From Craspedostauros australis (taxonomy: Eukaryota): a DNA stretch of 64,000 nucleotides. Location: NCBI GenBank assembly GCA_030167865.1, contig JALAGF010004049.1, positions 1 to 64,000 on the forward strand. Reading direction: 5' to 3'. Made by a program: the position numbers and the translations under genes. This document shows positions 23,335 through 61,109 of this stretch, piece by piece. The stretch's first letter is position 1; each line of letters begins with the position of its first letter. The notes under the pieces were generated by a model. That model did not search any database, was not told the origin of the DNA, and saw nothing but the letters and a program-made list of their open reading frames with translations.

Positions 23335-25714
23335 ATGATGCTCAACACGATCAGCACAAACAACCGGTCCAATCTAGCTGCGACTGCCTTCTACTCTGAC
23401 AGCGGCTGCGATCGCAACAGGATGGCAGGCCACAGCATTCACAATGGTAAGCACAGTGACCAAGTACAGATCGATGGAGATGCTTTCACAAAGGTCATTC
23501 GCACCTCGGTCGTCGAGTGCAACCTTTCAATCCTTGCAGGTGCCCTCATTAGCACTGCACCACTCGTGGCTCGAAGTACGATGCATCCACCAGGCTGTGT
23601 GTGAACGACGCCTGTCTCTTACACCACTGTCTTCTTGCTACTATCCCTGCTCCTTGTTCCTGCTCCTCCGTTGCCCCCATTGGCCCTGTTGGCACACCAA
23701 CCCACCAAAACCATCGGCGCTTGCAAACATTCCAGGCACAACAGCCGGCGAAGCACGCAGCGCAAACGAGTGCGTTACTCCGATGAACCTGAGTGAAAAG
23801 CACGTTTCACGAACCCAGTACTCCGCAAGCGACGATTGGAACGTGCCCATCATCTCCCACACCAGCACTACGACGACTGCCGACGATTTGATGGGCAACT
23901 CTCATGGTGGGGCAGAACGGATGTTCGCACCGAACATCGCTTCGGCTTGCCAGAACCAACAACGGCCCTTGCGATTGACCCTGCCTCCTGATGCTCAGGC
24001 AGCATCGGCAGTTGTGTCAGTGGCAACGGCATCAAGCGACGAGACCGCAGCAGGAGACGCGGTTTCTGCGTGGCCCCTGAACAGGTTGGAACCAAGGCCA
24101 ATTGGTGCGGGCGGGATCAGCGTGGTCAAGTCAGTACCCTTGATGGCCATGGGATTGAAGGGGACGATCAATCAAGATTGGATCGCCGAGCTACGAAGGA
24201 TCGTCTGTCCGGCATGCAAAGCGAAGGATGCTGGTGAGGAGGCGTCCGCATGGTTGGCGCATGATCTCCCGACAATGTCTCCAGAGCAGTCGGCTCAATT
24301 TTGCTTTGGTTTCACGCACATGAACACAAACATGGACACAGACATGGGCATAGACAAGGACACAAACATGGACACAAACATGGCCGTTCTGCCAACACCA
24401 TCAGCGATACCAATGGCACCGCCGGCCGCGAGAAGCGAACACGCCAAGATCAAGGCGAATGAGGATATTGCCCCCCGCCTCCACTCTCATCACAACCTCT
24501 CTTGCTGTCCTTCGCCAACGACCAGCAACATCAAAGTCGAAGAAGTGAACCAAAAGCGACAACCAAACTTTTTCATCGCGAATGAGCCCAGCGAGAGTGA
24601 CGAACACCGTGACAATGGTAGCGATGTTGGCATCACTGATTCTGACTCCTCCGGCTGCGACGAACCATGGCGGGAGTCAGGGAGCGGTTCACCAAACGAG
24701 ACAAGTGCTGACAGCGACTACGGCCACCACTCCAACGATTCTCCGGCCTGGAATACTCGCACAACAGACACCGATCAATTCATCTCCATGATTACATCAG
24801 AGGAAGATCACCTGAATGGTTGCTGTTCCACAACCAGGTCGCAATTGGCTCACGAAGACCTCTTCGGTGGTGGACCGCTCAGTCTCCCTGATGCTCGGGA
24901 TGTCTCCGTCAATGGAGAAAAGAAGCCTTCTCTCCCTGATCATGTCCGTGTCAACGGCCACCCGTCACCCAATACAGCAACGAGTGGCAGACATGGCCAG
25001 CAAGGCCACACAACACCACATCATCGCACAACCTCGACACACCTGGTGTCGTCTCCCACCCAAATCGATTCGGAATCGGCCAACGGTTCGAGCTTGAGCA
25101 GCAGCAGCAGCAGCAAGCCGTCATTTCAGGAGCTGGCGCAGCTGCCGTCGAGGTGCATCACCAACGGCCCCACGCAGTCAGAACAATGGAACGATAAGTA
25201 CCAGGAGCTGATCGACTTCAAGCACCAGCACGGGCATTGCCATGTGCCCAACTCATGCCAAGGTGACAAGCCTCTTGCCCACTGGGTGCGCCGACAACGC
25301 CATCAGTACCGTCTCAAGGCAGAAGGCAAGCACTCCACACTCTGCAACGTGCGGCAGCAGGCATTGGAGGATCTGAACTTTATCTGGGACTCCCACGCTG
25401 CGATATGGGAACAGCGGTTCCAGGATCTCGTCTCGTTCCAACGAGAGCACGGCCATTGCAAGGTCCCGCGACCGTACCACACTAATCCTCAGCTTGCCAT
25501 TTGGGTCAAATGCCAGCGCCGGCAGTACCAACTCTGCCTGGCACAGCAAAAGAGCTCCATGTCCAAAGACCGAAAGCTGCGTCTCGAACGCATTGGCTTT
25601 CTCTGGAACATTCGGGGCAGGCGCAGGTCCAGCGGTGCTGCTCGTAACTCCAAGCAAAGCGCTCAGCACAAGTCAACATCAAAGTCGCAAGAAGCAAAGA
25701 TGAAGCAGCGATAG
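23335..25714 (+). CDS. HA-HA protein 1: disordered N-terminus plus two helicase-associated (HA) domains; putative nucleic-acid-binding regulator
   Basis: C-terminus QWNDKYQELIDFKHQHGHCHVP...LAHWVRRQRHQY...LEDLNFIWDSHAAIWEQRFQDLVSFQREHGHCKVP...LAIWVKCQRRQY...LERIGFLW. Proposed exon 1 is 23335-23446 with intron 23447-23735 (G|GTAAGC...CCAG|GC, phase 1, frame-compatible). The unspliced ORF from 23444 is the alternative model. Confidence 0.9.
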
Positions 25715-28700: not shown

Positions 28701-29137
28701 ATCGTTGCAAATGTTCAATTGAAGGTCTCTGCTCCCCAAGCTCGGTGGTTCCTTTGGCGCTGGTTACGATCTACGCAAGTCGGTATGCCACACGCCGCAG
28801 TACTCTGGGAGTACTTGCGACTACAACCCTATCCCACTTTGTTCCCCAGAGTCAAGCGACAAGCGAATACTCGTCATGTGTGGCAGTGTCTCCCGGTATG
28901 GAGTAGAGTAAGAGTAAGAGTCGGATGCAGTGCAGTGTCGCATAGTGTTGGATTCGAATGTTGTTGATGCTACGTGGTATTATATTACACCATACTCTGC
29001 ATACTCTGCATACTCTCCAGTGAAGAAGTCATTCTTGTTCATGTTGTTCATGTTGTCGTCGTTTCAGTCGGAGCAATACCGATGCTTCTGTCGTCACAGA
29101 GCAGAAGGACACTGTTGCTGCTGGCACAACCGTTTGT

Positions 29138-31634
29138 TCACTTGTTTTGGCGGGTTGTCCATGAAAATCCAATCTCCTCAAGTCGCTTCATGCGGTCGCA
29201 TGTGAGCGCCGCCTTGCGGCCTTCGCGGTTGAGCTGGTACTGCCGACGCTGGCATTTCACCCATATGGCGAGGCGAGGCTTCTTGCTGTAGGACCGTGGG
29301 ACTTTGCAATGTCCGTGCTCGCGTCGGAAGTTGACCAGGTCTTGGAATCGCTCCTCCCAGATGGACGTGTGTGGATCCCACTGGAAGCCTATCCTGTCCA
29401 GGGCGTCTTGTCTCTCCTGGGTCATCGTGCAGCGCTTGCCGAGCTGCCTGAGCTTGTACTGATGCCTCTGACGTCTGACCCAGTGCGTGAGCGCCTTGTC
29501 GCCGTCCCATGTGTTCGGCACGTGGCAATGGCCGTGGATCTTCTTGAATTGAACGAGCTTGCGAAACTTCTCTTCCCACTGCTGGCAATAGATCGGAGGC
29601 TGTTGCCGTGCGTTGCATGAGGGCATGACAACGGTATCGGCAGTGACAGCACTAGCCGCAGAAGTGCCTGAAGAGGATCGTGATGATGATCTGACGTCGA
29701 TCCCACCACGGCTCTCTTCGATGGGTGCAGCCGAGTTCGTGCTTGAGACCTTGCGGTTGGGTGCAATCGGGTCGTTCTGGACGGCGATGTGCTCGCTCCC
29801 ATCATGGTTGCCGAACCCGTCGCAAGGCCAGAACGAGGAAGCGTTCTGCGAACTGGCGGATGGCGAATCATGCCATTGATCGTTTTCAAGAGCCCCAATT
29901 GCCGCGGCACAAGCATCCAGCGATTCCTTCAATGCCTTCATGGTCATGGGTCGGTCACCCGTGTGAGCGCATGATGATGACATCGGCGCCGGCACAGGCA
30001 CTCGCCCCTGTGTGGACGTCGAAGCATGCATCGATGTTGGTTGGTGCTGCTGCTGCGCAGGTGGGCCCATGCTGTTGATGGTGGGAGGCTCCACAGGAGG
30101 GACGAGGTGGTCGGGAACGATAACTCTGTCCATGTCGGGAATCCCCCATGGTGCGAAGATGCTGTTTTCAAGCGTGATGTTGGTCGGATTGTATGACAAT
30201 GGGGAGACGCAGTTCGGAGTGGCGTACTTTCCCGTTTCCGCTGAGGATGTCTTGATGACCGCATCATGAGCAACGGCCTGCACGCAACTCTTGGCGGACT
30301 CTGAGGCCTGCCAAGATGCCTGGTGAGCTTGGGTATCGCTCATGTCCCTCGCATCGATCGTGATGACCTTCGCGGATGCTACAGCGACATCGTCTGGATA
30401 CTTATCGGCAGAGTGCGGTTGCCAATGATGGGGTGTCGCGGCACTGGTGTCATCCAGCGCATGGAATGACGACCCATCTGTGAGGAATGCCTCGCGCAGC
30501 GGTGCAGACGCCATTGTTGGCGTTGGCGGTGCTGCCAGCGATAGCATTGGCAACGGGAATGACAGGTCTTGTTGCATCATCGTCCGGAACTCTTGAGCGA
30601 TCGCGTGATGACTGTCGTCAAACGCTCGGCAGCTGACGGACTCGACTCTTTGGAAGCCGTCCGCATTGATCGGCGTTGGTTCTAACGAATGGCACTCTTG
30701 AAAGATATCCCCCTGGCCTTGCTCTCGACTCGCACAGACGATCATGTCGCCAGGATGCTGGATGTGATCGTCCATTTCTCCTCTGAAATTGCCGTTTGAC
30801 AGTTGGAGTCAGATGTGAGGTGAGGTGGTGTGGTGTCGTGCGGTGTGGGAAAAGTGGGAAGAAACGACAAAGCAACGCAGAGTATGGTATTTTATCGTAC
30901 CGAACAATACAGTGCGATCATGGTGCACGCGTATACGATTGTGAATGCGGTTGTGAATGCGGGTATGAATGCGGGTGTGAATGCGGATACGAATGTGAAT
31001 GCACAGCAGGACCACACACGAGAGCAACGGGTTGTAGAGTAGGATGAGTTCTCGCTTGTTCTGATAATTTGACTTAGCCTCCTTGCGGCTCTTCAAGCTT
31101 CGCTCGTATCCTCGATGATCATCTTGTTGTTGTCTCGACGATTAATAGAGCGAAGTCAGGGATTGACTCAGCCCGACCTGAACTGAGCTGAGCTGACCTG
31201 AGCCGAAGTGGCCCCAACCCAACCCAACCCAACCCAAGTCGAGCCGAGCCGAACCAATAGCGACATGGTTCAGATGATGGCACCAGACCGAGGGCCATTG
31301 CCAAGCTGCCAAATCACCAAAACACGAAACGGTATGTCAAGAGAAATCACTTCAACGCAACGCAACGCAACGCAAGAAGAGGCGAATCGAAACAAACTAG
31401 GAAGGCTGGTAGAGCGCGATGCGAGTGGATGAAATGGAAGCGAAGGCACCATCCTGATCCCAGCAAGCCGCGATCGTCTTCTTACCTTGCGGAGTTGAGG
31501 TAGACCATGGTCTCTCCATCTCGCACTGACATACTGAGACCGTCAATGTCATCTCCGAAGCCTTGCATTGGCTCGATCATTGTATGGAAGTCGCTGCAGT
31601 TGGTGCCGCTCTCGGTGGCGTGGTGAAAATTCAT
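29138..31634 (-). CDS. HA-HA protein 2 (two exons)
   Basis: Two HA repeats at about 29160-29585. Exon 1 (31634-31486, MNFHHATESG...VYLNSA) joins through intron 30783-31485 (AG|GTAAGA...TTTCAG|A, phase 2) to give ...NSARGEMDDHIQ, in frame with ORF 29138-30775. Confidence 0.9.
30941..31002. repeat. 12-bp tandem repeat (GTGAATGCGGGT-like) in the intron
   Basis: About 5 degenerate copies read directly. Confidence 0.8.
31170..31256. repeat. Mosaic pentamer repeat (GAGCT/GACCT/CAACC/CGAGC) in the intron
   Basis: A 5-bp period is kept while the unit sequence changes. Confidence 0.75.
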
Positions 31635-32456
31635 TGTCGCGTTTGTGGTTTCTGTCACTTGCGACACTTTGGAGGGACGTGAGGGATGGGTGCCCTTGCT
31701 GTTGGCGAAAGATGGCGGAATCAAGGTCGGCGCGGGTGGGAGGGCGTCTCTGGATCTCTCTGTGCACACGAAGCGCTGGTTATCGATCGTCGGAGTAGCT
31801 CGTAGTTGCCAGTGCCGCAAGGTCGTGAGTGCTGATCTTGCTTTGGGGCTGATGACTTTTTTTGGTCTGATCGGGATTTTGTGGTCATGCGCGATAGTCG
31901 ATCGGCATCTCCCGTTCAGAGCCTTCAACATGACGACAGCTGTTGCTATTTGCTGGGCGTCGAGTTGGCAAGCGGTTGGTGCTTGGCGGAGAGCACAAAT
32001 ACTCTACGCTCTGCAAAACACTTGTTGGGTCCTTGGCGCGGTTCCGCCGGTCTCGGCTGTGTGTGTTCCTGTGTACCACTCCCCTGTGGTTGTTGGTGTA
32101 ACCGTAGTGCGAAAGCCGGACAGATTTATCTGGTGCCTCTTTAATCACGTGCCGACACAACACGCACCGCGCTGACGCGCATTTCCGCGCGGTTACGTAC
32201 AAATCACATCACAGATAACCGCAAAATACAGCCGCGAGGTACAAACAGTACATGTAAAGCGCAGCAGAGCCAAGCATCATACATGCGCGTAAACAGACCA
32301 TGATCAGCGGTGTCACTGCAAGGTCCGAATGTGATAACGTTTGTACTCGTGCGAGTCTGCGTGTACCAACATCGCGCGGCAGGTCGGACAAACACCAGCA
32401 GGGCAGACAGCCGAGTGTTGTTTGCCGCAGCGTTGTGCACATGACAAGATGTTGCG

Positions 32457-32484
32457 CTGAACTGAACTGAACTGAACTGAACTG
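32457..32484. repeat. (CTGAA)n pentamer repeat
   Basis: Direct reading of the sequence. Confidence 0.85.
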
Positions 32485-36390: not shown

Positions 36391-38661
36391 TCAGATGGCG
36401 TTCATCATGTTGGCACCACGAGCAAACGAGCCGGAAGGTGCGCCGTTCATGCTCATGTTCATGTTGACGTTGATGTTCATAGCATGGCCGCTGCCATTGC
36501 CGTTGGTGTTACCGTTCATGTTGGCACTCGCTTGGCGCTTGGCCGCCGCCGCGTGCGATGATCGGAAGGAGGATGGTGGCGAGACTCGCGCCCTTCGCGA
36601 AGACTCCGGCTGGATGAGGTGACCGCGGTTCCCCCTGGCGTACCACACGAATCCCAGGTCCTCGAGACGCTTGGTGCGCTCGGTCGACAGCGCGGTGCGT
36701 TCGCCGCACTTGTTGAGCTGGAACTGGCGACGTTGGCACTTGACCCAGATGGCGAGCTGCGGGTTTGGTGGGTAACGCCGTGGGACCTTGCAGTGGCCGT
36801 ACTTGCAGTGGAAGTGCACGAGCTCCTGGAATCTCTCCTCCCAGATGGCGGCGTGAGAATCCCAGACGAAGTCGAGCTCCTCGAGAGCCCGTTGGCGATC
36901 ATCCGACAGCGTGGAGTGCTTGCCTTCCACCTTGCGGCGGTACTGGTGCCTTTGGCGTCGCACCCAGTGCGCGAGGGGCTTGTCACCGTCGGAGTTTGAG
37001 TTGGGGACGTGGCAGTGACCGAAGCGACGGCGGAACGCCACCAGCTCCTGGTACTTCTCGTTCCACTGCTCCGACTGGGTCGGGCCGTAGGACAGGGTGC
37101 AGGTCTTGCCGTTGGGCGTCGTGCTGGTCTCTGTGGTGGAGGTCCTCTTGGTCTTCTTCTTGGCGCAGGCGCCGTCCAGGCTGCCTCGCAGGACACCGGC
37201 GATGCCGGCGACGGCGTTGTGGTTGGCGCCACCGACGGGGAACTTGGCGTCCTGGAAGGCCTGCGATCCTGGCGAGATGACGTTGCTGAGCCACGATGTG
37301 GGAGCCCCAGCGTTGGCGGAGAGGGAGGACTGCAGCAGCTGGTTCTGCCTGGCGAAGCCGGTGAGATCCTCCGCGCCTCTCTGCTTGGCAGCGGCGCCAC
37401 CGAGACCGGTGAGGCTGGAGTCGATGGTCTGCAGGGTGTTCTCGCAGTCCTCGAGGGCGCTGAGCAGGAACTCCTTGGTGGTCTTGGCGGGTGCCGGGGA
37501 GTTGGGCACGCCTCCGGCGCCGTTGCAGGCTGCCCAGATGTCGGACTGGTTGGGGAAGATGTCGAAGCAACCGGCACCGGCGCCCCCCATCGCGGAACCA
37601 GCCGCTGGTGCAGGCTTTGCTGCGGACGCCCTGGAGGTGGCATCCGCGAGCCCGCCGAAGGAGCAGCCTTGCGTCGAGGCGATGGCGCTCATCATCATCA
37701 TGTCGTTGGCCGATGGGAGGTTCATGGAGGAGGAGGGGGCTCCCGTGACGGCTGCTGCGGCGAGCGCGGCTGCCATGCCGGAGTGGGAGGCATCTGCGCG
37801 ATGGTTGTCGGCGGCGAAGTCGGCCTTGGCGCCGTTGATGGGGGTTGGCTCGAGCGTCCAGCCGCCGAAGCCAGGAGCGGCGCTTGAGGATCCCGCGGCG
37901 TTGGCGCTGGCGCTTCCGGTCGCTGAGCCGATGCAGCTGGCGTGGGAGGGCTGGGCCTGGAGCTGCAGGAGCTTGGCGATCTGCTCCTCCTGGTCTCTGC
38001 GCTGCTGCAGCTGGTTCTGCTGCTGTCGCAGCTCGTCCTCCAGGAACTGCAGCTGCTTGAGCGTGTCGGAGAGCCTGAGCGGGTCGGACTTGCGCACGAG
38101 GAAGGGCGAGAGCAGGGCCTGGTCCGCATCGCCCTGGATGCCGCGCGAGTACTGCGGGCTGGCCGTGAGGGTGTCGAAGAGCTTGGGCTGGTCGATGAAG
38201 TGGCCGTGGCTGTCTCCGAACATGCTCGAGGCCGGGGTTGTCTGAACAGCACCCAGCGTGCTTCGGAGGGAGCCGCCGCGGGGAGCACCCAGCGGTGCGC
38301 CGACGCCAGAGGCTTGGGAGCCAGAGGCGAACGCATCCAGCATGTCCAGCTGGGCGGAGGTGGCCGTGGCCCCTCCTGAGACCATGCCGCTAGAGATGCC
38401 GCCAGAGATGCCCAGGGGTGGCTGGGAGAGCTTGGTGGACTGGAGGAAGGGGCTGCCTGGCATCATCATCTTGCTGAACCCGCTAGCGGCCGTTGCGGCG
38501 CCCATGCCCAGGCCGATGCTGGCTCCGCTCTGGCTTGCGCTGGCGCTGCCGGTTCCAGTGCTGCTGCAGTCGCTGACTTGGATCGGGGCGCGGGAGTGGC
38601 TGTGGGCATGTCCGTATCTGAACTTTGCCATGTCCATGTTGGATGACATCATGTTCTGCAT
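36391..38661 (-). CDS. HA-HA protein 3 (756 aa) with a Gln-rich coiled-coil segment
   Basis: GPTQSEQWNEKYQELVAFRRRFGHCHVP...LAHWVRRQRHQY and WEERFQELVHFHCKYGHCKVP...LAIWVKCQRRQF; very high GC3; LKQLQFLEDELRQQQNQLQQRR is coiled-coil-like. Confidence 0.93.
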   Translation of the reverse strand: MQNMMSSNMDMAKFRYGHAHSHSRAPIQVSDCSSTGTGSASASQSGASIGLGMGAATAASGFSKMMMPGSPFLQSTKLSQPPLGISGGISSGMVSGGATATSAQLDMLDAFASGSQASGVGAPLGAPRGGSLRSTLGAVQTTPASSMFGDSHGHFIDQPKLFDTLTASPQYSRGIQGDADQALLSPFLVRKSDPLRLSDTLKQLQFLEDELRQQQNQLQQRRDQEEQIAKLLQLQAQPSHASCIGSATGSASANAAGSSSAAPGFGGWTLEPTPINGAKADFAADNHRADASHSGMAAALAAAAVTGAPSSSMNLPSANDMMMMSAIASTQGCSFGGLADATSRASAAKPAPAAGSAMGGAGAGCFDIFPNQSDIWAACNGAGGVPNSPAPAKTTKEFLLSALEDCENTLQTIDSSLTGLGGAAAKQRGAEDLTGFARQNQLLQSSLSANAGAPTSWLSNVISPGSQAFQDAKFPVGGANHNAVAGIAGVLRGSLDGACAKKKTKRTSTTETSTTPNGKTCTLSYGPTQSEQWNEKYQELVAFRRRFGHCHVPNSNSDGDKPLAHWVRRQRHQYRRKVEGKHSTLSDDRQRALEELDFVWDSHAAIWEERFQELVHFHCKYGHCKVPRRYPPNPQLAIWVKCQRRQFQLNKCGERTALSTERTKRLEDLGFVWYARGNRGHLIQPESSRRARVSPPSSFRSSHAAAAKRQASANMNGNTNGNGSGHAMNINVNMNMSMNGAPSGSFARGANMMNAI

Positions 38662-40169
38662 GTTGCTGTCTGTTGATGTCTGTTGATGCTTGTTGATGTC
38701 TGTTGCTGTCTGTTGATGCCTTTGATGGGGATGATGTGAGATGGCTCAGTTGTGTTGTGGATGTTATGGTTTGTGTTGTTGTATTATTGTGTCTTTGTGG
38801 TATTGTGCGATTGTGTCTTTGTGCCTTTTGGGGATGTTGATGATCACCGATTGTGTCACTGTGGATTGTTGGTGGGCTTTTGGATTTTATGACCACAGGG
38901 AAACCGTTTGCGTTGTGTTATTTTGTGTTGTTTTGTTGGTTTGTTGGGTTGAGTTGTTGGTTTGTTGGGTTGGAGAATCGGCGGCACCGCCAATACGCAG
39001 CACGAGCAGCTGCACAAGTCGTCTGGTTGCGAGAAAGCAGAAGGTGCCAAACGCTTTGCATCCCTCCGCCATAGATTTCTCTCCGCCTTGGCGCCAGTAC
39101 CATCTCCACGCACGAGTACGAAGATTCTATGCGGTTGTGCACAAAGCAGAAAGGTGAGATTGTTGGAGGTGACAGGGAGAAAGAGAGAGCCAGTGTGATC
39201 TTCCCCTCCTCGGCGCCGAACTCGTGCTCGTGCCCGTTCTCATCTTGGAACTTACGCCTTGCATTCTGCTGTACGAACCCTACCAAGAAAGTCAGCCAAT
39301 GGTGCGCGTCACTGTGTCAGAACACTAGCACACCAGATCAGCGTACAATTGAGCAGGCACGCAGTATGAAGAGCAGACAAAGTTCGCAACACCAGGCAAC
39401 ACAGCAACAACGCGGAGGAAGAGCGACTGACAGATTTCTTGCCTGTGGTCACAAACGATGTTCTTCGTTTCCAGAGTGATCGGTCGACTGGGGTGATGGA
39501 AACAAGGGTACTCTTCGCTGGGTTGCGAGTCCGCAAGACATCGCATTGGTCCTGATTTCTGACAGAAACTACAGGTTCGCACGAACACCAACAAGCGGTC
39601 GTCGCCGGTCTTTTGAGTTCCATGCTCCTGCGCTGTGTTCATCGCTTCACGCTCACATGGCTGAACAGCATGGCGCAACACGGCTCAAAATGGCTCAACA
39701 TGGCTCAACATGCCCCAGACATCATCGGCACGTTAAACATCCTTGCCCCTTCAACCGTTGCCAAGGCACAGATGATCAGCCTGCAACCGTCCTTTTTCTT
39801 CCTCTGTGTCTCTAGATCTTGTTCGTGGTCTCTTGTGGTGGTGTTATGTTGAGGCTTTCTGCTCGTGGACTCATCTGCTCCGTAATCTTTATCTCAGCAC
39901 AGGGCGAGGAGGTCCTCCTTGGCCCAAGTTCGGAGAGCGCCATCTCCCCTGCTTCACTGCAACTAGGTGGTTCGATTTGAAGAGCACGATATTATGGGAG
40001 TTGAGGTAAATCGACATAAATTACATATATCCACTCGTGATTTGACATCTCAGAACTGGATCGAACAACCTCGAATGAGTTGCGTCACAACACAAATCAA
40101 CCGTACCCACGCCACAATAAACTTGCTGTTGTTCAGAACTATTACTACTACTACTACTACTGCTCTGCT

Positions 40170-41960
40170 ATGATTTGTGCTGATGTTGGTGCTAGATGTG
40201 ATGGTACACTGTTTGCACTAGGATCTGGCTTCATTGGGATGGATGGACATGTCATCCTTGGTGATGTCCTTCCGCTTGTGCGCTGCAGCACGTCAAGCAT
40301 GTCGCACCTTTTTCTTCGCAATTGGCGTCGCCTTCACCTTGTTGGTATCTTGGACACAAAGAGTAAATGCACACATGCCATAGAAGATTGGCATGTCATC
40401 ATCGTCAGAATCATCCTCGAAGATCTTCCCAACACGATCAGGGTCTGCTTGGCAATGAAGGAGCGTGATCGGATCGTCGTCCTCGCCAACCTTGGCATAT
40501 CCATTTTCAGGATCCACGAAATCCAGCTCAACCTTGCCTGGGAATGTGTCAGTGAGACTGACTGCATGCTTCTCTGTGTCATGCTCAGCCTTGTAGCAGC
40601 CCCAGAAGATATCAAAGTAGCTTTGGATTTGTGGGTCCAGGTTCCCAACTTGCAGATACTCCTCTGACACCCTGTACTTGGTGTTGTAGTTGTGCACATT
40701 CTTCGCGAAACTGACACTGATGGTGCTTTCATCGACAATCTTGAATTCAACGGAATTGACTGTCACTCCAAAAGGAACCTCGAAGTACACAATGTAGCCA
40801 GTTCACATGCTTGCGTGGCTTGTGGAAGAGTTGGGATCTGGAACCTGGATTGGGATGAAGTGCAATCCAGGGATCTCAGATGAGATCTTCCCACCACAAA
40901 CCTGAACCTTCTGGGACACAGCAAGATCTGCATCATTGTTCTCAATGGGATTCTTGAGGGTGGCCTTTTGTGCAGGCATCTTGCCATTCTGTGTGCTCGT
41001 GCTGGGCTTGAATTGGGCTGGGAGCTCTTTGAAGAGGACACAGGGAGGTGGTGCCGATGTACCAACAACATTGACTCCATCACTTGATTCGACAGTCTCG
41101 AGGGTGTACTCATCTTCATTTGCGTCACTGCTATCGATGGATTCGTTGGAAGCGGATGTTAGGTGGGCGACTGGACTGGTGTCTTGAGTGATGGGAGGGA
41201 TGTCAACTTTGGTGGGGTGGCTGTCCTCTCTTTCAATAGTATTGTATGACTCTGTTATGATCAGAGATTGATAGTCATTGTCTTCACCAATGTTGTAGTC
41301 TTTGTCTTCGCTGCTTTCATTGGTGTCATTGTCTGTGGATGGTGAGTTGTTCCTCTGTTGATTTGTCATCTTATTGCTGTAGTTCGCTTCATGTCCACGT
41401 GGAGGACTGTTGTCGCTTCCTGGCTGGAGAGAGAGAGCATTGATCGAGTCTCGGAACGTCTCGATTGCGTCCGAGTGTCCCAGACAATCCCAAACGTCCT
41501 CGGAACTCCTTCTCCAAGGCTGAGAAAGAGAAGCGGGAGGGATGTGAGTGGCCGTCACAAAATTCACACCGCAAGACAGGAAAATCACATCACCACACAA
41601 ATGATGCCATCATTCATCTCATCACTGTTGGCACTTACGTTCTCGCTGAGACTGATGCTTTTTGAAGCGATCGACACAGCTTTTGAAGTTGATTGCGAGG
41701 TTGCGGCGGAGGTAGTTCTTGCCCTTTGAATCAACCCAGTTGGTGTGTGTCTTGATGAACTCGCTGAAGGTCTGTGTGATGGAGTTGTTGATGAGACCTT
41801 TGATGATGTACACAGCATCATCAGAGTCTTGGTACCATTTTTGGAAACCGGATTTGTTGAAGATGGGATGTGTTTTATGCCGAGTTGGTTTCGTGCTGTT
41901 GTTGCGAGGTGTCATTGTTGTTGTGTTGTGAGACCATCCCTCACACCACAGACCAAGCAT
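40170..41960 (-). pseudogene. Fragmented ORF(s), probably the accessory gene of a DNA transposon
   Basis: Three consecutive protein-like minus-strand ORFs (41622-41960, 40803-41600, 40293-40790) in CpG-depleted sequence, next to a subterminal-like motif array and a transposase relic. No domain recognised. Confidence 0.5.
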
Positions 41961-42179
41961 GTGAAAGCAGCGTGCGAACAGGGAGAATTATAGCAAATCA
42001 AGTTACTTGCATGATTTGCTGCAACATCATCGCAAATGTGGTGTTGTCATGGCACTTCAGAAGAAAACATTCCAACCAAGTTGAGCAAACCCATGTGAGA
42101 ACTGAGCAGGCATTGCTTCACAAACATCAGAAGTGTAGCACTATCCAGGGCACAGTGCTCAGTTGGTGGGGAGCATAAA

Positions 42180-42535
42180 TTCGAGGGAATTTCCAGCATC
42201 GCAGGAGAATCTGTCTAGATTGCAAGGGAAAGATTGGAGGTCGCAGGGGCAATTCTGAGAATGCCAAGGAAATTGCTGCAATGGGAGGGAACTTTTGGAG
42301 TTACTGGGGAAATTTCGAAACAGGAGCAACATGATGATGTGAACAAATGTACGCAAGTGTACAAAGTCATGGACATATTCATGAGGGAAATTGCAAGGAA
42401 ATATCATGTCCCAACACTCCCCAACACTATGCGAGTTTCCCCTACGATGGAATAATTTCCCTGACGGTGTTGTTTACTTCCCCTACGGCCCCCACTTTTC
42501 CCCCTGAAGACTCGTTTTTTCCCTCACGAGTGTGT
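42180..42535. repeat. Array of short AGGGAAAT-like motifs in both orientations; probable transposon subterminal repeats and end
   Basis: About 7 GCAGGGAAATT-like units roughly every 20 bp (42182-42326), then about 5 inverted TTTCCCCTACG-like units (42436-42529), ending CCCTCACGAGTGTG. Confidence 0.6.
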
Positions 42536-43510
42536 CATCGAACCAGTCAAGACAAGTAATGGTCTCTGTCATATTGAATAATGCATGGACACATGAAATA
42601 GATGAACATGACATTCACAACATTCGTTACAGGCACACAAGACTCCCACCAGAGCCGATACTGCGCACCAGACATGAACCACTACTATGGTTCATGTGAA
42701 GCAGTAGCACCAATATTGTTAAGTAGAGCACAGGAGACAACTGTTGATTGCAGCATTCATAACATTTTTAATCACACACATGCAACATCGTTCTGTCTCA
42801 ATATACATTATTTGAATGAAGTATGCGCCTGCCGTATCGCGAAGATATCCATACAACAGCTTTGTAGCCATAGTTGTGAGTTTTTACCGGTGTGGGAATG
42901 TATCCCCCAAGCCAAGTCAGCAGGGCAAGCCATGGGCTCGGACATTTGGGAACAAGAGGGAAGCCTGTGGTTCAGCGAGGCCGCTGCCCGATTCTTGACA
43001 ACCAAGTAGAACAAGTCGCAGCATGAGGACTACGCATGTCGCCTTGGCGTGTGAAAACTGATCCAAGTGGTGATACTTGCTGCTGTTCACCCAGGAGCTT
43101 CCTCAGTGCAACATGAAAGAAGCGCATTGCAAATCATGACATTGGTTGGCTGTGGAGCCCTGTGCCATGCTCATGCATCAGCAATAGCCATGACAACCCA
43201 GAACTGCTCACATTTTCAATTTCCACCATCAACATCAAAGCCAAGATGGCATGATCACCACAGACTACACCTCATGGATGCTCAGGCAATCAATGGAGGC
43301 AGCATCACCAGCCCACGCATGCAAATCAATAACCACAACCATCAATCACACACTCCATCCAACAAGCACAATCTTGATATCTATTCCCATTGGCTCCTCC
43401 ATTTCCATCACCATGGCCTGTATCAGCACAAATCTGTATTTTGCTAAGTATATTACTCCTGTAGCCCCCACTATCTAAAAATGTCACTGGTGTTTGGTTC
43501 AGCAATTGCA

Positions 43511-43580
43511 ATGACTGTAGCTCAACAGTAGAGCACCAGTAATTCTCACCAAGGTTCCGGGTTCAAATCCTGGCATGGTA
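43511..43580 (+). pseudogene. tRNA-like sequence (tRNA pseudogene or SINE-type head)
   Basis: A-box TAGCTCAACAGTAGAGC (D-stem GCTC/GAGC) and B-box T-arm CCGGG-TTCAAAT-CCTGG at tRNA spacing. The acceptor and anticodon stems pair poorly, so it is not a functional tRNA. Confidence 0.7.
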
Positions 43581-43639
43581 CTTTGCTTTTGCTTTCCCTT
43601 TGTGATTTTTTCAATAGTGCTCTTTCAGCCTGCACCAGC

Positions 43640-44677
43640 ATGCCTGCCAGCAAGGCCAGCAAGTTGAGCAATCGAAGCTCAAGGTTGATCAAGGACAAGA
43701 AGGAGAGCACCAGGATCACAAGGCAACAACAACAGTTACTTTGCTCCCAATACTCATAAGCTGGCTTTGAGTTCATTGGATTCTTCTTGATGGGGAGCCT
43801 GCTCCCCAAGAATGGCTGGTTGGAAACATCCAGGAGAGCATTCATTGTATGGTTTGGCATCACACCCAAGCTGTACAAGGAGGTATGGAATTGATGTGTG
43901 CTCCCTGCCAAGGCACAACTGAAGCACCTGTTCTGGGCTCTTCACTTTCTGAAGAATTACCCAACATATGATGAAATGAAAGCAACTTTTGCAGCTGATC
44001 CACACACACTTCGAAATTGGATCTGGCAATTGATCACCTCCATGCAACAATGATACAAAGAAGTGGCAAGTGACTTCATGCTGTGCTTTGTTCTGCCTTT
44101 TGCAATGTACCCAATGCCTGCATTCAATCCAATAGTTTCTCACACTTGTTTCCAGATCAAATGGCGCACCTGTTTGAATTCATCAAAACCTTGAACTTGT
44201 CACATTACTGTGGATGGAACGGATTTCCGCATCCATGAGCCAACACCATTCAGCTCAAAGTGGTACAGCCACAAATTCGAGATGTCTGGGTTATGGTATG
44301 AAGTTGCAATATCCATTCAAACAGGCCACATTGTTTGGGAATTTGGCTCTTTTCCGCATGGCAAGTGGTCTGATCAATAGATCTTCAAAGCCTTCCCTGC
44401 AAAGAGACTGATGAAGGGAGAATGTGTTGAGGCCAATGGGGAACGGTGGGCCCATGTGCTGAAGGCAATGCACTATGTGTCCAAGTTGAACCAACGAGCA
44501 AAGTTGAATGCTCGTGCACACCATGAAACTATCAACAGGCAGTTCAAGAGATGGGCGATCCTGGGTGACATGTGCCGATCAAGCCGCGACTGCCACAAGG
44601 AAGTATTCAAGACAATTTCTTTCCTCACACAACTTTCCATCCAATCTGGAGGCTTCTGCCCATATCAAGCAAAATGA
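43640..44677 (+). mobile_element. PIF/Harbinger (ISL2EU-like, DDE_Tnp_4) transposase pseudogene
   Basis: Hand translation: KHLFWALHFLKNYPT...TLRNWIW, then intron 44066-44155 (GCAAGT...TTCCAG), then HITVDGTDFRIHEPTPFSSKWYSHKFEMSGLWYEVAISIQTGHIVW...GKWSDQ*IF...VEANG...AHHETINRQFKRWAIL. Several in-frame stops. Confidence 0.9.
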
Positions 44678-44874
44678 TAGAGTTGAGGGTGATTCACATC
44701 CTTCTTTTGAATGCTACATTCACTTCATTGTGTAGTTGACATGCTGCAAACAACGACTCCTTGCACTGCCTTGGTGTGGGCTGCATTATTCGTTCGATGT
44801 GGGACTGACAAACAGAAAGCCAACGTGAACGGGGTTTTGCTGGAACCGTGATTCAACTTGTTCTTCTCGGAAAT

Positions 44875-44890
44875 AATATATATATATATA
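44875..44890. repeat. (TA)n microsatellite
   Basis: Direct reading; lies near the right edge of the CpG-depleted block. Confidence 0.85.
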
Positions 44891-47800
44891 CGTTTACCTC
44901 AGATCCCTGCTACAATGTAGATTGGTGGCGCAATTTGAATAGCGCGTTATTCTGGGTAGGACAACAGACATGCACGCCCCTTGTACGGGAAGGTGTCGCG
45001 TCAATCCCATCAAGGAACCAACGCGCTTCACAACACTTCGCAACGCTTCGGAACGGGTCATCACCGTACGAGTACCCTCATCTGGTGGATGCATCCACGT
45101 TGCGCCATGCGTTGCCGTCCCGCTTTGTCCAACAGCATCTTCCTCCTCGTACGCTCTCGTGCCATCTTCGTGCTTCCACCATCGCGACAGTACGGATGGT
45201 GCATGTCGCCGAAACGATGACGAACACAACAACAAGGAGGTCTTGTTTCTGCGCACGAAGGGATCCGTCGAAGTGAGGTTGCTGTGCGAGGAATCGTGCA
45301 CGTCTCCGTCCAACAGACTAAACCAGGTTGGGACTGCGATTTCGACCCTCCAAAGCGACATGAGCATGGACTGGGGTGGCCATTAAATCATCCACTGGCT
45401 TCTGTTGGGAACGGCAGCCTTTTCCATGAAGGAGGCAGGAGGAGAAGCAACCGATACGCGCAAGAAGGATGTAAAGTTTTGTGATGTTCTAAAACGTGGG
45501 TCCAGTTCCGATCCTGTGTGGAACGGGTGCTGGTGCGGGTACGCACGGCTCCGTTCCGTTCCTTGTCCCTTGAACCATTGAAGTCCCTGGCCGTTCTCGT
45601 TGCCGCCGTTTCTGTCATAGTCGCAGTTGGGCTTCAATGTCAGTTCGTCATTTCTCGTCTTTTTCAGTGTTGGCGGATTGTGGTCATTCCCATCCTCGAT
45701 GGCGCCTTGTGACGCACTCTGTGTGGTGTTGTGAGGTATCACAATTGCACGATCATTCTTGGCATGCCCGTTGCGCCAATTTGTGGCGCCATTTTGGGAA
45801 TGGGACCCTCCTTGAGCGAATGACGTCCCTGACGCGGGCCTGACGTTGACGGAATGGTTGCCGGACACAATTATGCTTGTGCAACGAATGAAGATGGGTA
45901 AAGAATGTCGCGACAAGATCAATGTTCGACCAGCGAAACGCCTTTTTTGTCGGTTGAAGGCACTGTGACAACGTGGTCGTCCCACCGGCACTCAAAAAAG
46001 TCAATGTTGCTTTTCCGCAATCGCCCTGCCTTCCTCTCACTTGCCAAAATGACCTGCGTTGTTGGCACCAGGATTGGAGCGCTGGAATGGTGGAATGCTG
46101 AAGGAGAAACACAATGCCAGAACCAAAGCTAAAGCAGGTGTGCTCGCCAGATGTCGCGGAGATTCCAATCACTGTACTATCTGCGCAACCTATTCTATAG
46201 TGGGAGATCAAGAGCCAGGCGGAGCAGAGTCTCTCTCTCGAACGAACGAACGAACGAATGAAGGAAAGCCCAGGGAGACGGGTGATGGCAGTAGCAAAGC
46301 GGCATGGTGCTGACACTGAGGCTCCCGGTATCATCATGGTATCATCGCGGTTGCCGGGGCCCTCTTCTCCCTCGAGGGTAGCGTGTATCATACCATTCAC
46401 ATACCGATAGCACAGCGCTTCCTCTCGTGGCCATGATGGCGGGGACCGACACGAATCAGTGAATGAATTGAGTACTCTGTGTACCAGAATACTGCACCTC
46501 TTCCCCACGAGGAGAATGCGGTATTCCAGTCTCACGCTTTGGCGGTTCCAGAAATCGCCATCACGGCCTCATCGGCTTCCTTCCTCTATCTGCATGTGAT
46601 CTGCACGCAAAATCCCAGCAAGCTACGGTTGGTGATGTTCCTATTCGCATCGTACGAACACGCACTGCCGAGGTCGACGATTTGCTGCACGACGAGGTGA
46701 TTGGCAGGGTGCGTCGGCGTCAAAGTGACGTTGGAGCCATCCATGCCCATCACCGCGTTCATCACCGCGCCCATCACGACGTCGCGACCCCTGGCCGACT
46801 CTGGGGCTTTCTGTGCCGGCCTGAGAACACAGCGCTCCGACCTTTCTCACGAGATCTGTCGGGTTCTGCGATTCGGATTCTCGTGGCCCAGTGATGCTCA
46901 GCAGCGTCCCATACTCGTACCAAACCAATGACTTCTCTCTGGGACGCGAAGGAGGAAGAGCATTCGTACCCAATCCTGAGTCGCAGGATGCGTATTTGTA
47001 CGATCGTTGCGTTGGGCCTGTTTTGTGCGGAAGCGATGGGATGATGCACCATACGTGAATGTGATGTCAGGATGTTGTGACCATTCATTCATCCTGTCTC
47101 CAAGGAGATCTCCTTGGAGATCGACACACCACTCGTCCAACCCGGAAAGGAAAATAGTGTCTTTCTTCTGCCCATGGGCAATCAGATCCGTCCTGTGACC
47201 AATCGACTACTCCAGGGAGGAAAGTAATGGAGTGGTATTTGTATGGTGCGAGTGGAGCATCCGAACCGTGTCGTCACAGAGTTCTATTCTACTTTGAATT
47301 CCTCTTCCCGAGATGCTTGCACCATGGAGGAGGACAAGAACAAGACAGGCCATCGTAATAGGTAAGCAGACAGACCACCGAGGCACCAAAAGACGAAGGA
47401 TACTTGGATCCGCAGAACGCATCGTACGAAATTGTATCGTATCGTATCGCAGTTGTGGGAGGAGAATGATGGGTGTGGACCGCTGATCTGCAAACCCGCA
47501 TCTCACGCTCCTACTTCGACGTCCACTTGCATTCTGCGCATCGGTTCCGTCTTCCAGACGATCCGATGAAGAATACAACACGAAAAATCTCCAATCAAGT
47601 ATCGACTTCCGCTGCTGGGAAGCAACGCAAAGGCAAAGCACAGTGCTCCACGTATCTTTGGCATGGAGAAATGGATAGAGTAGCGCAGAGCAGAGGAGCT
47701 TGTGTCTCCACCCGTTTCTCCACTCCATCCCACTCCACTCTCGCTTCTACTCTCATTTTTCATGGTACTGGTGCTCTTGCAAACACTGCAGCTGGAGCGG

Positions 47801-50800: not shown

Positions 50801-52785
50801 GCGCACGAGTCGCCTTTCCTTGCCGGATCAAGGCCATGGCCACGGTAGTGTACAAGGCATCAAACAAACAAGCAAGGGTGCAAACAGACGCACAACTAAC
50901 ATCCGTCCTCGCTTTGTGGCTTCAACAGCCATACAATATTATCATAGCCAAACACAAAACAGTGTAGGACTGTACAGAACAGAACAGCCTCGCGATGTCT
51001 GCGATGATGCTGGAATGAGGCTACACAAGCCCAATGACGCCTTCCTCATTCCGTTGCACCAGTCGCTTGTGAATGATGCCCGCAGCAACGAAGACTGACG
51101 TCACAGTAACATAGAGTACTGTTCCATCTAAGAAATGCACACAAGGCGGTGATGCTTGCCAAGCTCACGATAAATGCGAGCATGTGTGGCCGTGGTAATA
51201 TCGCGTGTCTGGAACTCGATATGTCTCTCCCTTTGTGCAAACCTCCTGGGCGAACGCACAATGGAAGACCATTATTCGCTTCCCCATCCGCTGACGGCGC
51301 GCGAAAGCGATGATTGCGCTTGTGTGTCAAGTTGCTGTGGGGCGGTTGTTTTGGGGGGCATGCACACACCATCACAACACCTTGGCGGAATACCTCCCAT
51401 GTACAAACGTGGCAGAAACGAACTATTCCACGCACTCTGCTCTATGTTCCTGAAATCTTCATCGAAGATGACATCTCCCAACACAAACGCTGTTATCACC
51501 ATGAGCAGTGGACAATCTCATTTCTGTTGTACCAGCGACACCATCAGCGCCAACGGCACGAAGCAGCTCCCCATGGCTGCAACACCTACCGTATGAAGCA
51601 GCTCCAAGGGTGCAGCTCAAGCCGCCGTCCAAACTCCACCTCGTGCATCATCAATCACTCACCGGAAGGGTTTGGAGGAGTATCGCTGCGTTTCCGTAAC
51701 CACAAGTCGGCGGTGCATTGAGAATGATGGCTACTTAGAGCGGACGTGCCAGCCAAGATCCATTTTGCGGACCACGAGCAACATCTGTGCTCTGAAAACC
51801 CTGCATTCTCCCCAGGAGCGTTTGGTTACTCGCCTATCTTAAGTCATGGGTGTTTGGGAACTGCGGTGCATAAAGGACAAATCCTCTCGTCGGAAGTTGG
51901 TTGCCTTTGCTATTATTGGATGGTATCTTGGGAGGTCGGAGCGAAACACGTGTCTGATTACCAGTTTCGTTTGGGCATTTGTCGGACTTCTTCCCCTTGC
52001 CACTGTGTTGTGCCGAACGTGCAGTCAGCCTTTCCTGTTGACAACTGCCTGCTGGTACCGCGTTGCGTGGTGTGGCTCGTGGAGTATGGCCTTGTGTGGT
52101 TGTGTGGTTGCGTGGGGTTTCTCTCGCATTGTTGTCTCGTTGTCTCACTGTCTCAGCGATGTGGTGCCTTGGCCATTCTTCCCTCTTCTGTTTCGCATCA
52201 CATTCCACACACTCCGATCGTATCACACAGCACCGTCGGCCTTTCTTTTATCCAAGCTAACAGCCATCCTCCAAACTCGCTTCGGAAACACGTGAAGTCC
52301 CACGCACACATCGGAGGCTGGTGACGTGATCCATTCTCAGTTCTCACAATTCCTTTGTAGCGCCAACGTTGCTTGTGCCCTCTCTTTCATCACATCGACC
52401 ATCATCACGTTCATCATCACGTTCATCATCATCATCTCTACGATCTCAGCAGGGGGGAAGCAACCACACTGTAAACAATACACATCCATACACATCCATA
52501 CACCCACACGCACATCCACACCCGCACCAACCAATCCAACACCACAACATCACGACATCACATCACAACGCAAACAGATTGCTTTCATCCCCTCTCATCT
52601 TGTGCTCAATCCACAACATCCACAAGACGACATTGTGCACATCATTACCAAAAACGTCAGTGCTATCACGTTCAACTTCAACAGCCCTCCTCACGATTTG
52701 CAACAGTTCATCAATAGTCGATCACCGATCATCCTAACCCAGTGGCTCCATTACCCACGGCCGCTCATACAACCAGGGCGACAGC

Positions 52786-54747
52786 ATGATGCAGACGATG
52801 AACTTCACACACGGAGATCTCCATGAACGTCCACAATCACGGCCACGCACGCAACCAGGCCACCAGGCATCACCATCAACAGTCACAGTAACATCATCAT
52901 CCACAGTTGCATCAGCAGCACCAGCGTCTTCAGCAGATTCGGGATATCCAACAAAGGTAGATGCGACGCATGCCATCAACCGCCAGCTACCCTTCGACGC
53001 GTGGGCCATGCCCGTACCGTCCGACTCGTTCCATCTCGGGGCGTGTCTGGAGCCAACCCCCATCGCGAGCGACGGCATGAAGGTCGTCAACTCCCTCCCC
53101 CTGGCCTCGGGTTCATCGCTGGGCCCGGACCTTTCGTGCTTCCGCGACGTGGCGCAGGACATCTTGCTGCTGCAGGACGTCCTCGTTTGCCGCAACCCTG
53201 ATGATGGGCATGATCACTGCCATCCTCCTCACGAATGCGCCATCCCCTTCCAACCGACTTCTTCGCAGCTCCTGTCTCGATCTCCATTCGATCCTCTCTC
53301 AATGGCGAACTGCGCAGCATCCCATGGAACTCACATGCCTTCCACGGAAAGGCCTGCCAAGGCTCCGATGGCGCTGCCTCATCCTTCGCACACGCAGTCA
53401 CACACTTCTATACCTCCAAATGCACATACATATGCACATGCACATGCACATACATATCCATATCCATTCGATCATTCATTCGACCAATCATATCCATACG
53501 CACGCACGCAGATGAATATGCACGAGGAAAATCTATCACAGGAGGTCCGAACGATCGCAGCACAGGCCTGCCACCACCCAACACACAACGAGGCTTTGGC
53601 GCATGCCACGGGGCTGCTGCAGAAGCACCAGCCGCAACGCCACCAAGACCAGCACTGGAGGAGCATGGTCAATGCCGTCGCCGATGTCAACCCGGCCGTC
53701 CACGCAGGCGACAGCCGCAGCTGTCTGGAGCCGGCGACGCTTCGCAAGGAGCTGGATGACTGCAACGACATACTGGGTGGTGAGGAGCTCTTGGGAGAGC
53801 ACCAACACCATGACCATCAACGCCAGCAGCAACGCTCCACTGCGTCTGCTGGTACTGCCACCACACAGCACGCCCATCCCGCCATGCTATCGCAAGCAGC
53901 TGGCAACATCGAGAATCACAGAAGCCCGCTGCCACCGAACGGCACTGACGTCCCTCTTCACGTGGCCAGCGCATGCGACGAGAAGATGCCGATTCGCAAG
54001 GATGGCAGCGATGTGGATCTGGCGAGCGCAGCAGACGCCGGCGCCACGAACTCTCACGATCCCAACGAAGGGCTCCAGTCCACCGGCCCTGCCAGAGCCG
54101 CCAAGAGACGCAAGATCTGCGACAGCGATAGCAGCGTTGGCTCCGACAGCAACGCTGCGCCCACCACGAGCATGTACGCGGAGAATTGGAACCGACGGTA
54201 CAAGCAGCTCGTGGCATACAAGCAGCGCTTCGGGCACTGCCATGTCCCCCACATCACAGGCGGTGCCAACGGCAACAACAGCGCCTCGACTGATGACAGC
54301 GGCGGAGACAATGGCAACGCTAACACCACCAACTGCGGCACCGGCACCGGCAAGAACTCCTCCCACCAATCCAGCCTCGCTCACTGGGCTCGCCGCCAAC
54401 GCCATCAGTACAAGCTCAAGATGCAAGGCAAGTCCTCGAGCCTCAGCAACGAGCGACAGGAGGCGTTGGAGGCGCTTGGCTTTGTTTGGGACCCCAACAA
54501 CGCGGCCTGGGAGGAAAAGTACCAGCAGCTCGTGGACTTTGCCAAGGAGCACGGCCACAGCCAGGTGCCACGCTGGTTCGAGCAGAATCCGCCCCTGGCG
54601 ATTTGGGTCAAGTGCCAGCGTCGACATTTCGCGCGGATGAAGAAGCAGGCGGGGTTAAGGACGTCTCTCACGCCGGATCGAATCCGAAGGCTCGAGATGC
54701 TGGGCTTCGTTTGGTACGCGAAGGCCAATCCATGCCGAAGGAAGTAA
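52786..54747 (+). CDS. HA-HA protein 4 (653 aa), with a His-rich segment and an insertion in HA repeat 1
   Basis: WNRRYKQLVAYKQRFGHCHVP-[insertion]-LAHWARRQRHQY...LEALGFVWDPNNAAWEEKYQQLVDFAKEHGHSQVP...LAIWVKCQRRHF...LEMLGFVW; NLS-like AKRRKI. Confidence 0.93.
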   Translation: MMQTMNFTHGDLHERPQSRPRTQPGHQASPSTVTVTSSSTVASAAPASSADSGYPTKVDATHAINRQLPFDAWAMPVPSDSFHLGACLEPTPIASDGMKVVNSLPLASGSSLGPDLSCFRDVAQDILLLQDVLVCRNPDDGHDHCHPPHECAIPFQPTSSQLLSRSPFDPLSMANCAASHGTHMPSTERPAKAPMALPHPSHTQSHTSIPPNAHTYAHAHAHTYPYPFDHSFDQSYPYARTQMNMHEENLSQEVRTIAAQACHHPTHNEALAHATGLLQKHQPQRHQDQHWRSMVNAVADVNPAVHAGDSRSCLEPATLRKELDDCNDILGGEELLGEHQHHDHQRQQQRSTASAGTATTQHAHPAMLSQAAGNIENHRSPLPPNGTDVPLHVASACDEKMPIRKDGSDVDLASAADAGATNSHDPNEGLQSTGPARAAKRRKICDSDSSVGSDSNAAPTTSMYAENWNRRYKQLVAYKQRFGHCHVPHITGGANGNNSASTDDSGGDNGNANTTNCGTGTGKNSSHQSSLAHWARRQRHQYKLKMQGKSSSLSNERQEALEALGFVWDPNNAAWEEKYQQLVDFAKEHGHSQVPRWFEQNPPLAIWVKCQRRHFARMKKQAGLRTSLTPDRIRRLEMLGFVWYAKANPCRRK

Positions 54748-61004: not shown

Positions 61005-61109
61005 ACAACACAACAACAGTAACAACAGCCAACAACAGTAACAACAGCAACAACAGCAACAACAATAGTAGCAACAACAGTAACAACAGTAACAACAATA
61101 GTAGCAACC
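61005..61109. repeat. (AAC/AGY)n trinucleotide-type repeat just upstream of the HSF start codon
   Basis: Direct reading of the sequence. Confidence 0.85.

What the first reader, a model, noticed from the sequence alone, without database searches (positions are those of the whole stretch)
23335..54747. Cluster of four helicase-less HA-HA genes that looks like an uncharacterised transcription-factor cluster
Seen: four genes within 31 kb (+,-,-,+), each with roughly 450-550 aa of low-complexity N-terminus followed by exactly two HA repeats near the C-terminus. None has helicase motifs. No other intact gene is recognisable between them. Known: HA (PF03457) is a small three-helix domain described from bacterial helicases and only predicted to bind nucleic acid. 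Inference: the architecture (disordered tail, basic helical tandem domain, NLS-like patches) matches sequence-specific regulators, and the non-alignable N-termini imply an old, retained local expansion rather than recent copying. HA-repeat proteins are common in diatoms; the tight cluster beside an HSF is the notable part.
Basis: partly seen in the sequence, partly recalled or inferred. Interest (0 to 1): 0.8.

Follow-up and report, generated by a model that had tools for sequence, protein, structure and literature searches.

The report
Overlooked diatom DNA-binding protein family cluster
Four neighbouring genes in a diatom are old copies from a large family of proteins that probably bind DNA and regulate other genes; the clustering itself is ordinary, but the family shares an undescribed conserved motif and may be a class of gene regulators that has been missed.

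Summary
The four genes are real: each has two Pfam HA repeats, no helicase, and a long low-complexity N-terminus. They are old tandem duplicates (one clade, 100/99; a Stauroneis orthologue of gene 3 nests inside; silent sites saturated). The cluster is not special. This genome holds at least 52 distinct genes of this type, 32 of 76 copies have a neighbour, and the family is already listed as expanded and tandem-enriched in Seminavis (117 genes, supplement of PMC7335047). HSF proximity fits chance. Helix 2 of each repeat is the most conserved and most basic part. Best reading (0.55, inferred): an unrecognised family of DNA-binding transcription regulators with its own effector module. Binding, localisation and expression of these four genes are untested. 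The interest lies in the family, not the cluster.

The parts
23378..25714 (+). HA-HA gene 1, main ORF (643 aa from Met 23783; the 5' end may be spliced from ATG 23336)
   Evidence: exon structure inferred, no RNA
24080..24145 (+). Gene 1 EPxPI-x6-VV box, followed by an amphipathic helix
25178..25600 (+). Gene 1 HA repeats 1 (25178-25381) and 2 (25400-25600)
29138..30808 (-). HA-HA gene 2, main ORF (545 aa from Met 30775)
31486..31634 (-). Candidate first exon of gene 2 (consensus donor, in-frame acceptor near 30783, intron about 700 nt)
   Evidence: inferred, not shown by RNA
30626..30691 (-). Gene 2 EPxPI box, followed by an amphipathic helix
29165..29584 (-). Gene 2 HA repeats 1 (29384-29584) and 2 (29165-29365)
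36391..38745 (-). HA-HA gene 3 (756 aa from Met 38661); orthologue P0002 in Stauroneis constricta
37795..37860 (-). Gene 3 partial box (EPxPI core only, no VV part)
   Evidence: 14.7 bits; 6.0 when left out of the model
36649..37074 (-). Gene 3 HA repeats 1 (36868-37074) and 2 (36649-36849)
39996..44907 (.). Decayed DNA-transposon-like repeat, 16-nt imperfect terminal inverted repeats starting GGG, broken ORFs; a bystander
   Evidence: no Pfam match
52738..54747 (+). HA-HA gene 4 (653 aa from Met 52786), 34-aa insertion in repeat 1
53041..53106 (+). Gene 4 EPxPI-x6-VV box
54157..54726 (+). Gene 4 HA pair (repeat 2 at 54502-54708)
61023..63113 (+). HSF gene (DNA-binding domain 61233-61514); a neighbour, not part of the family

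Best explanation
The four genes are old tandem duplicates within a large diatom family built as: disordered N-terminus carrying an EPxPI-x6-VV box plus helix, then a C-terminal HA-HA pair (shown). The pair folds as two three-helix units (model). Its two basic, nearly invariant second helices most likely contact DNA as a two-part recognition head, so paralogues would bind similar sites (inferred). The conserved box and helix most likely recruit a shared cofactor, while the variable disordered parts and long intergenic regions let copies differ in regulation (inferred). They would work like R2R3-Myb-type two-repeat transcription factors, on a different fold.
For: Family size and architecture. 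Tandem origin and age: window four plus P0002 form one clade, 100/99, with P0002 sister to gene 3, 100/92; 55-73% of four-fold sites differ while proteins stay 46-67% identical. Helices 2 and 5 have mean entropy 1.17 and 1.15 bits (other helices 2.0-2.2) and net charge +5.5 and +4.7 (other helices -0.8 to +0.8) over 52 paralogues. Model pLDDT 93; only clear structural match 2KTA, Z 7.2, rmsd 2.8, 69 aligned; the paper on a Bacteroides PF03457 NMR structure is titled as indicating DNA binding (reference title seen in PMC12191111). HA repeats are fused to TniQ, to PLD nucleases, to Mrr plus helicase (P0008), and in one protein to an HSF DNA-binding domain (P0172). Box: 32 of 52 paralogues, 22 of 36 outside homologues versus 2 of 720 shuffles. 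In Pseudo-nitzschia two HA genes rise about 30-fold in MT- cells 2 h into mate sensing (log2FC 4.97 and 4.76; Table S10 of PMC5485032).
Against: No binding, localisation or reporter data. No known transcription-factor fold stood out in the structure searches. Conserved basic helices suit RNA or structure-specific DNA binding equally well. The full box was not found in 42 HSF-locus ORFs (best 4.3 bits), so it is not a general diatom activation motif. Gene 2 has no clear NLS outside the HA pair. The HSF fusion is one unnamed metagenome protein on a 1.5-kb contig. In Seminavis the family is not enriched among up-regulated genes in any condition (count 0). The Pseudo-nitzschia genes were not shown to belong to the box-bearing subfamily, and 4 of the 7 HA genes seen in that table go down. 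20 of 52 paralogues did not reach the box threshold.
Confidence: 0.55

Rival explanations
1. RNA-binding post-transcriptional regulators: the HA pair binds transcripts, and the box recruits decay or translation factors.
For: [quoted passage not shown]
Against: The bacterial fusion partners found act on DNA: TniQ, Mrr plus helicase, PLD nuclease. One fusion with HSF.
Confidence: 0.15
2. Non-sequence-specific or structure-specific DNA or chromatin binders (telomeres, repair, chromatin architecture, transposon silencing) rather than gene-specific regulators.
For: HA repeats occur in the Streptomyces telomere-linked helicase TtrA and in telomeric TniQ. Near-invariant recognition helices over 52 paralogues imply little change of target.
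Against: More than 50 paralogues with variable tails and a fixed two-repeat layout is the pattern of regulator families (general knowledge). Opposite expression changes among HA genes during mating.
Confidence: 0.17
3. Protein-interaction scaffolds with no nucleic-acid role; the HA pair binds a protein partner.
For: No direct binding test exists for eukaryotic HA proteins in the papers found.
Against: Strong positive charge is confined to helix 2 of each repeat; a reference title reports DNA binding for the bacterial domain.
Confidence: 0.08
4. Genes carried and spread by transposons, like the accessory DNA-binding ORF of PIF/Harbinger elements (family trait recalled).
For: Large copy number; a transposon relic lies inside the cluster; HA is used by Tn7-like elements.
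Against: No shared flanks among 52 paralogues beyond one near-identical pair and short matches of 21-37 nt (50 upstream and 49 downstream flanks). The relic lies more than 1.2 kb from gene 3 and holds no HA. By eye, the nearest DDE_Tnp_4 match to any listed HA pair is about 5 kb away. Saturated silent sites, intact frames and a conserved orthologue.
Confidence: 0.05

Closest known systems
Pfam PF03457 HA domain; PDB 2KTA (Bacteroides vulgatus)
   Same: Sequence match far above cut-off; same three-helix unit, Z 7.2.
   Different: No helicase; exactly two repeats at the C-terminus of a long disordered eukaryotic protein; an N-terminal box that matched no Pfam family.
Seminavis robusta family HOM02SEM000018 'Helicase-associated' (PMC7335047 source data)
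   Same: Diatom HA family listed as expanded and tandem-enriched, 117 genes.
   Different: Only a table row: the main text never mentions 'helicase', and no function, subfamily or motif was seen. Its sequences were not compared here.
TniQ-HA fusions and TtrA helicase (bioRxiv 2024.11.13.623437; 2025.07.27.667033)
   Same: Tandem HA repeats attached to DNA-targeting proteins.
   Different: Bacterial, with a catalytic or transposition partner domain; HA specificity was left open by the authors.
R2R3-Myb and HSF transcription factors of diatoms
   Same: Layout: compact basic helical domain plus disordered tail; large families; HSFs expand in tandem. The two-repeat layout of R2R3-Myb is recalled.
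   Different: No Pfam match to Myb or HSF; no such fold listed; the box was not found in 42 HSF-locus ORFs.

Membership tests
Pfam HA (PF03457) | Profile match above gathering cut-off | tested here: met
   118.7-131.7 bits versus 28.4, two stretches each
Pfam HA (PF03457) | Three-helix unit like 2KTA | tested here: met
   Six helices in two units, pLDDT 93; 2KTA Z 7.2, rmsd 2.8, 69 aligned, next row 4.6
HA-bearing SF2 helicases | Helicase core in the same protein | tested here: not met
   None in the four ORFs or in 24 of 24 other HA ORFs of this genome scanned; further exons not excluded
Sequence-specific transcription factor | Sequence-specific DNA binding | not testable with these tools
   Only indirect: conserved basic helices, fusion partners
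Sequence-specific transcription factor | Nuclear localisation | not testable with these tools
   NLS-like patches outside the HA pair in 3 of 4 genes
Sequence-specific transcription factor | Effector (activation or repression) region | tested here: inconclusive
   Conserved box plus helix found; its activity is unknown
Myb / homeodomain / HTH | Pfam profile match | tested here: not met
   Only HA matched at E <= 0.01
Myb / homeodomain / HTH | Shared fold | tested here: inconclusive
   No row stood out apart from 2KTA
Tandem duplicate array | Neighbouring copies form one clade | tested here: met
   81/70 among 52 own paralogues, 0 of 500 label shuffles as low; 100/99 with P0002 among 86 rows
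Tandem duplicate array | Closer than genome-wide density predicts | tested here: met
   About 0.0006 such runs expected
Transposon-borne gene (PIF/Harbinger second ORF) | Shared element ends or flanks among copies | tested here: not met
   only up to 600 nt each side of the ORF were compared
Transposon-borne gene (PIF/Harbinger second ORF) | Adjacent DDE transposase | tested here: inconclusive
   By-eye comparison: nearest about 5 kb; short contigs and other transposase families limit the test

The most novel reading that the evidence does not exclude
Helicase-less HA-HA proteins are a large, so far unrecognised class of sequence-specific transcription factors in diatoms, at least about half as numerous as HSFs in this genome. 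They were built from a DNA-targeting domain otherwise known from bacterial helicases and transposons, and carry their own conserved effector module (EPxPI-x6-VV box plus helix) that binds a common, unknown cofactor. Some members may act early in mating.
Probability: 0.45. Interest if true: 0.78.

Novelty: new variant of a known kind. Interest (0 to 1): 0.55.

Why it matters
Diatom gene-regulation studies work from known families such as HSF, Myb and bZIP. If HA-HA proteins are regulators, at least 50 genes in this genome (117 HA-family genes in Seminavis) are missing from those lists and are often labelled 'helicase activity' by annotation transfer (seen). The conserved box and the invariant basic helices give exact residues to mutate, so the question is directly testable in Phaeodactylum. 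The cluster alone adds little: it is one of several tandem arrays of the family.

Tried and rejected
Box binding to the HA pair: complex prediction gave no answer (score 0.00, alignments not used). A second model of a paralogue (L008, box to C-terminus) gave pLDDT 83 for residues 11-20 against 44-51 in the linker; no contact data came back, so it is not used. Box as a general activation motif: full box in 0 of 42 HSF-locus ORFs (6 picked only as longest ORF; 41 of about 116 HSF loci examined); the short core was in 4 of 42 versus 4 of 840 shuffles, a weak lead. A genome-wide DNA pattern gave 50 hits (control 10), 16 in HA genes; 20 of the other 34 were fetched, none had HA and the best scored 10.4 bits in a 21-aa frame. 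A database search with the module alignment found nothing at E <= 10 among 7995 candidates (weak). The Atlas gave no usable hit for the module and only HA clusters, mostly diatom, for the pair. Foldseek gave no match at E <= 0.001; Myb and HTH folds did not stand out. HSF linkage: no enrichment. Transposon relic: no Pfam match and its copies do not coincide with DDE_Tnp_4 matches, so 'PIF/Harbinger-like' rests on recalled motifs only. Earlier scan findings: none. The Mills 2013 NMR paper was not held.
Full report
Observation. The window holds four long ORFs at the stated places and strands. Each matches only Pfam HA, twice, at 118.7-131.7 bits against a cut-off of 28.4, and no helicase family. 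The parts before the HA pair are 463, 394, 527 and 462 aa from the first plausible Met and are rich in small and polar residues. Gene 2 probably has an extra first exon at 31634-31486, and gene 1 may be spliced from ATG 23336; both are inferred. Between the genes I found no intact gene, but 39996-44907 is a decayed repeat with 16-nt imperfect terminal inverted repeats and copies at 71-95% identity elsewhere (55 matches listed; 39 of 136 candidates scored). The organism is a diatom, judged from its closest homologues.

The family. A Pfam search of the genome (65.9 Mb, 6734 contigs) listed 150 HA matches, all over cut-off, from 243 candidates of which 150 were scored; a search with gene 1's pair gave 108 matches. 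In 78 fetched HA stretches plus the window there were 76 two-repeat ORFs, 59 after merging near-identical copies, and 52 after dropping 7 long-branch rows. All 24 further HA ORFs scanned had HA only. Outside this genome the profile hits 25,178 cluster representatives; of 56 of the top hits scanned, 6 had helicase families.

Is the cluster special? It is closer than chance: about 0.0006 runs of four in 31.4 kb are expected. But 32 of 76 listed copies have a family neighbour within that distance, against at most 5.2 expected, and contig C3396 has four in 16 kb. That list was taken and counts overlapping or allelic contigs more than once, so the 32 is inflated; distinct arrays include C4049, C3396, C4090, C1298, C6634 and C3749. 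The source data of the Seminavis genome paper already list a 'Helicase-associated' family of 117 genes as expanded and tandem-enriched (PMC7335047, supplement rows). HSF closeness is unremarkable: 133 HSF matches in the genome, and 2 of 56 HA contigs have one within 12 kb against 2.3 expected, ignoring contig ends. Two long ORFs lie between gene 4 and the HSF.

Origin and age. Among 52 own paralogues the four form one side of a branch with weak support, 81/70 (65 in a quick tree with all 59 rows). With 36 outside homologues added and 9 divergent own rows left out, the four plus P0002 form a clade at 100/99, and P0002 from Stauroneis constricta is sister to gene 3 at 100/92 and 82% identity. 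So the duplications predate the split from that species (inference; midpoint root). Between the four, 55-73% of four-fold sites differ while the proteins stay 46-67% identical. Gene 3 and P0002 also share N-terminal blocks, including a Gln/Glu-rich, coiled-coil-like stretch and an L-E/D-D-C helix. Flanks are not shared among paralogues. These are long-kept host genes, not mobile cargo.

The N-termini share a short box, hydrophobic-E-P-x-P-I-x6-V-V. An iterated profile found it in 32 of 52 paralogues; 31 of those 32 scored above the best of 1040 shuffles when left out of the model. On held-out data it was in 22 of 36 two-repeat homologues from other sources, against 2 of 720 shuffles. An amphipathic helix follows within about 40 residues in 20 of 53 box-bearing proteins, against 2 of 286 background windows; that pattern was written after viewing the alignment, so it is not an independent test. 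Genes 1, 2 and 4 have the full box; gene 3 has only the core. The box matched no Pfam family, and the full box was not found in 42 HSF-locus ORFs.

The HA pair. The model has two three-helix units, pLDDT 93. The only clear structural match is 2KTA, Z 7.2, rmsd 2.8, 69 aligned. Over 52 paralogues helix 2 of each repeat is the most conserved part (1.17 and 1.15 bits against 2.0-2.2) and the only strongly basic one (+5.5 and +4.7), with invariant W, Q and R. HA repeats elsewhere join DNA-acting proteins: TniQ and TtrA (passages of bioRxiv 2024.11.13.623437 and a legend of 2025.07.27.667033), PLD nucleases (passage of PMC12191111, which cites an NMR paper titled as indicating DNA binding; only the title was seen), and Mrr plus helicase. 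One unnamed protein joins an HSF domain to an HA pair.

Mechanism. Shown: architecture, family size, tandem origin, conservation pattern. Inferred: nuclear import, DNA recognition by the two basic helices, cofactor recruitment by the box and helix, and divergence of copies in their tails and upstream regions. I put sequence-specific transcription regulation at 0.55, structure-specific or chromatin binding at 0.17, RNA binding at 0.15, pure scaffold at 0.08 and mobile cargo at 0.05. A lead on biology: in Table S10 of PMC5485032 (rows 1-11 of 15 seen) seven HA genes change during mate sensing in Pseudo-nitzschia, three up and four down; two rise with log2FC 4.97 and 4.76 in MT- cells at 2 h. No enrichment test was possible and subfamily membership was not checked. 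Against a simple stress role, the Seminavis family is enriched in no up-regulated condition.

What is in print. Full-text searches pairing 'helicase-associated', 'helicase associated', 'HA domain' or PF03457 with diatom, Phaeodactylum, stramenopile or transcription factor found no paper on diatom HA proteins (search listings). Term look-ups found no 'helicase' in the main texts of PMC7335047, bioRxiv 2026.03.25.714157 and 2025.10.24.684338, one unrelated mention in PMC5485032, none in nine supplements of PMC8027222, and only bacterial or HA2 mentions in PMC13551039 and PMC12787238 (passages). Subscription journals are not covered. Supplements of the preprints were not seen, the Seminavis file was cut when stored, and one Pseudo-nitzschia file was not searched; these could bear on novelty.

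Verdict. The genes are real, and the cluster is an ordinary old tandem array. What is new is the subfamily with its conserved box, a plausible unrecognised regulator class. Novelty: new variant of a known kind. Interest 0.55.

Noticed in passing
window 39996-44907: Decayed DNA-transposon-like element with GGG-starting terminal repeats, a broken transposase-like frame near 43760-44674 (+), broken frames near 40296-41987 (-), and a nested repeat of about 210 bp near 43418-43630 with many copies elsewhere.
   Followed up: partly
P0172: 362-aa metagenome protein with an HSF DNA-binding domain fused to an HA pair, nested among box-bearing homologues; single record.
   Followed up: partly
L013, L014, L015 (C4091, C3396): A second array: four HA-HA genes in 16 kb, five in about 21 kb if the 514-bp exact overlap with C4091 is a true join.
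   Followed up: partly
L039, L040 (C3671): Two 98.8% identical HA-HA genes in inverted orientation at the two ends of a 14-kb contig; a recent duplication or an assembly effect.
   Followed up: no
window 36391-38745 and 52738-54747: Genes 3 and 4 (and, by eye, gene 2) share a second short helix, L-E/D-D/A-C, 100-135 aa before the HA pair; also in P0002.
   Followed up: partly
L108, L112 and other HSF loci: The short core hydrophobic-E/D-P-x-P-I/L/V occurs in 4 of 42 HSF-locus ORFs versus 4 of 840 shuffles; a possible wider diatom motif.
   Followed up: partly
window 4100-7039 (+): 979-aa secreted-looking protein with cysteine-rich repeats and Pro/Thr/Ser spacers; no Pfam match.
   Followed up: no
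window 16368-18266 (-): 2OG-Fe(II) oxygenase gene upstream of the cluster.
   Followed up: no
window 55571-59258 (-): Two long low-complexity ORFs without Pfam match between gene 4 and the HSF, 62 nt apart; possibly one spliced gene.
   Followed up: no
G000 C4545 and C4432: HSF genes also cluster (four within 23 kb and three within 15 kb).
   Followed up: no
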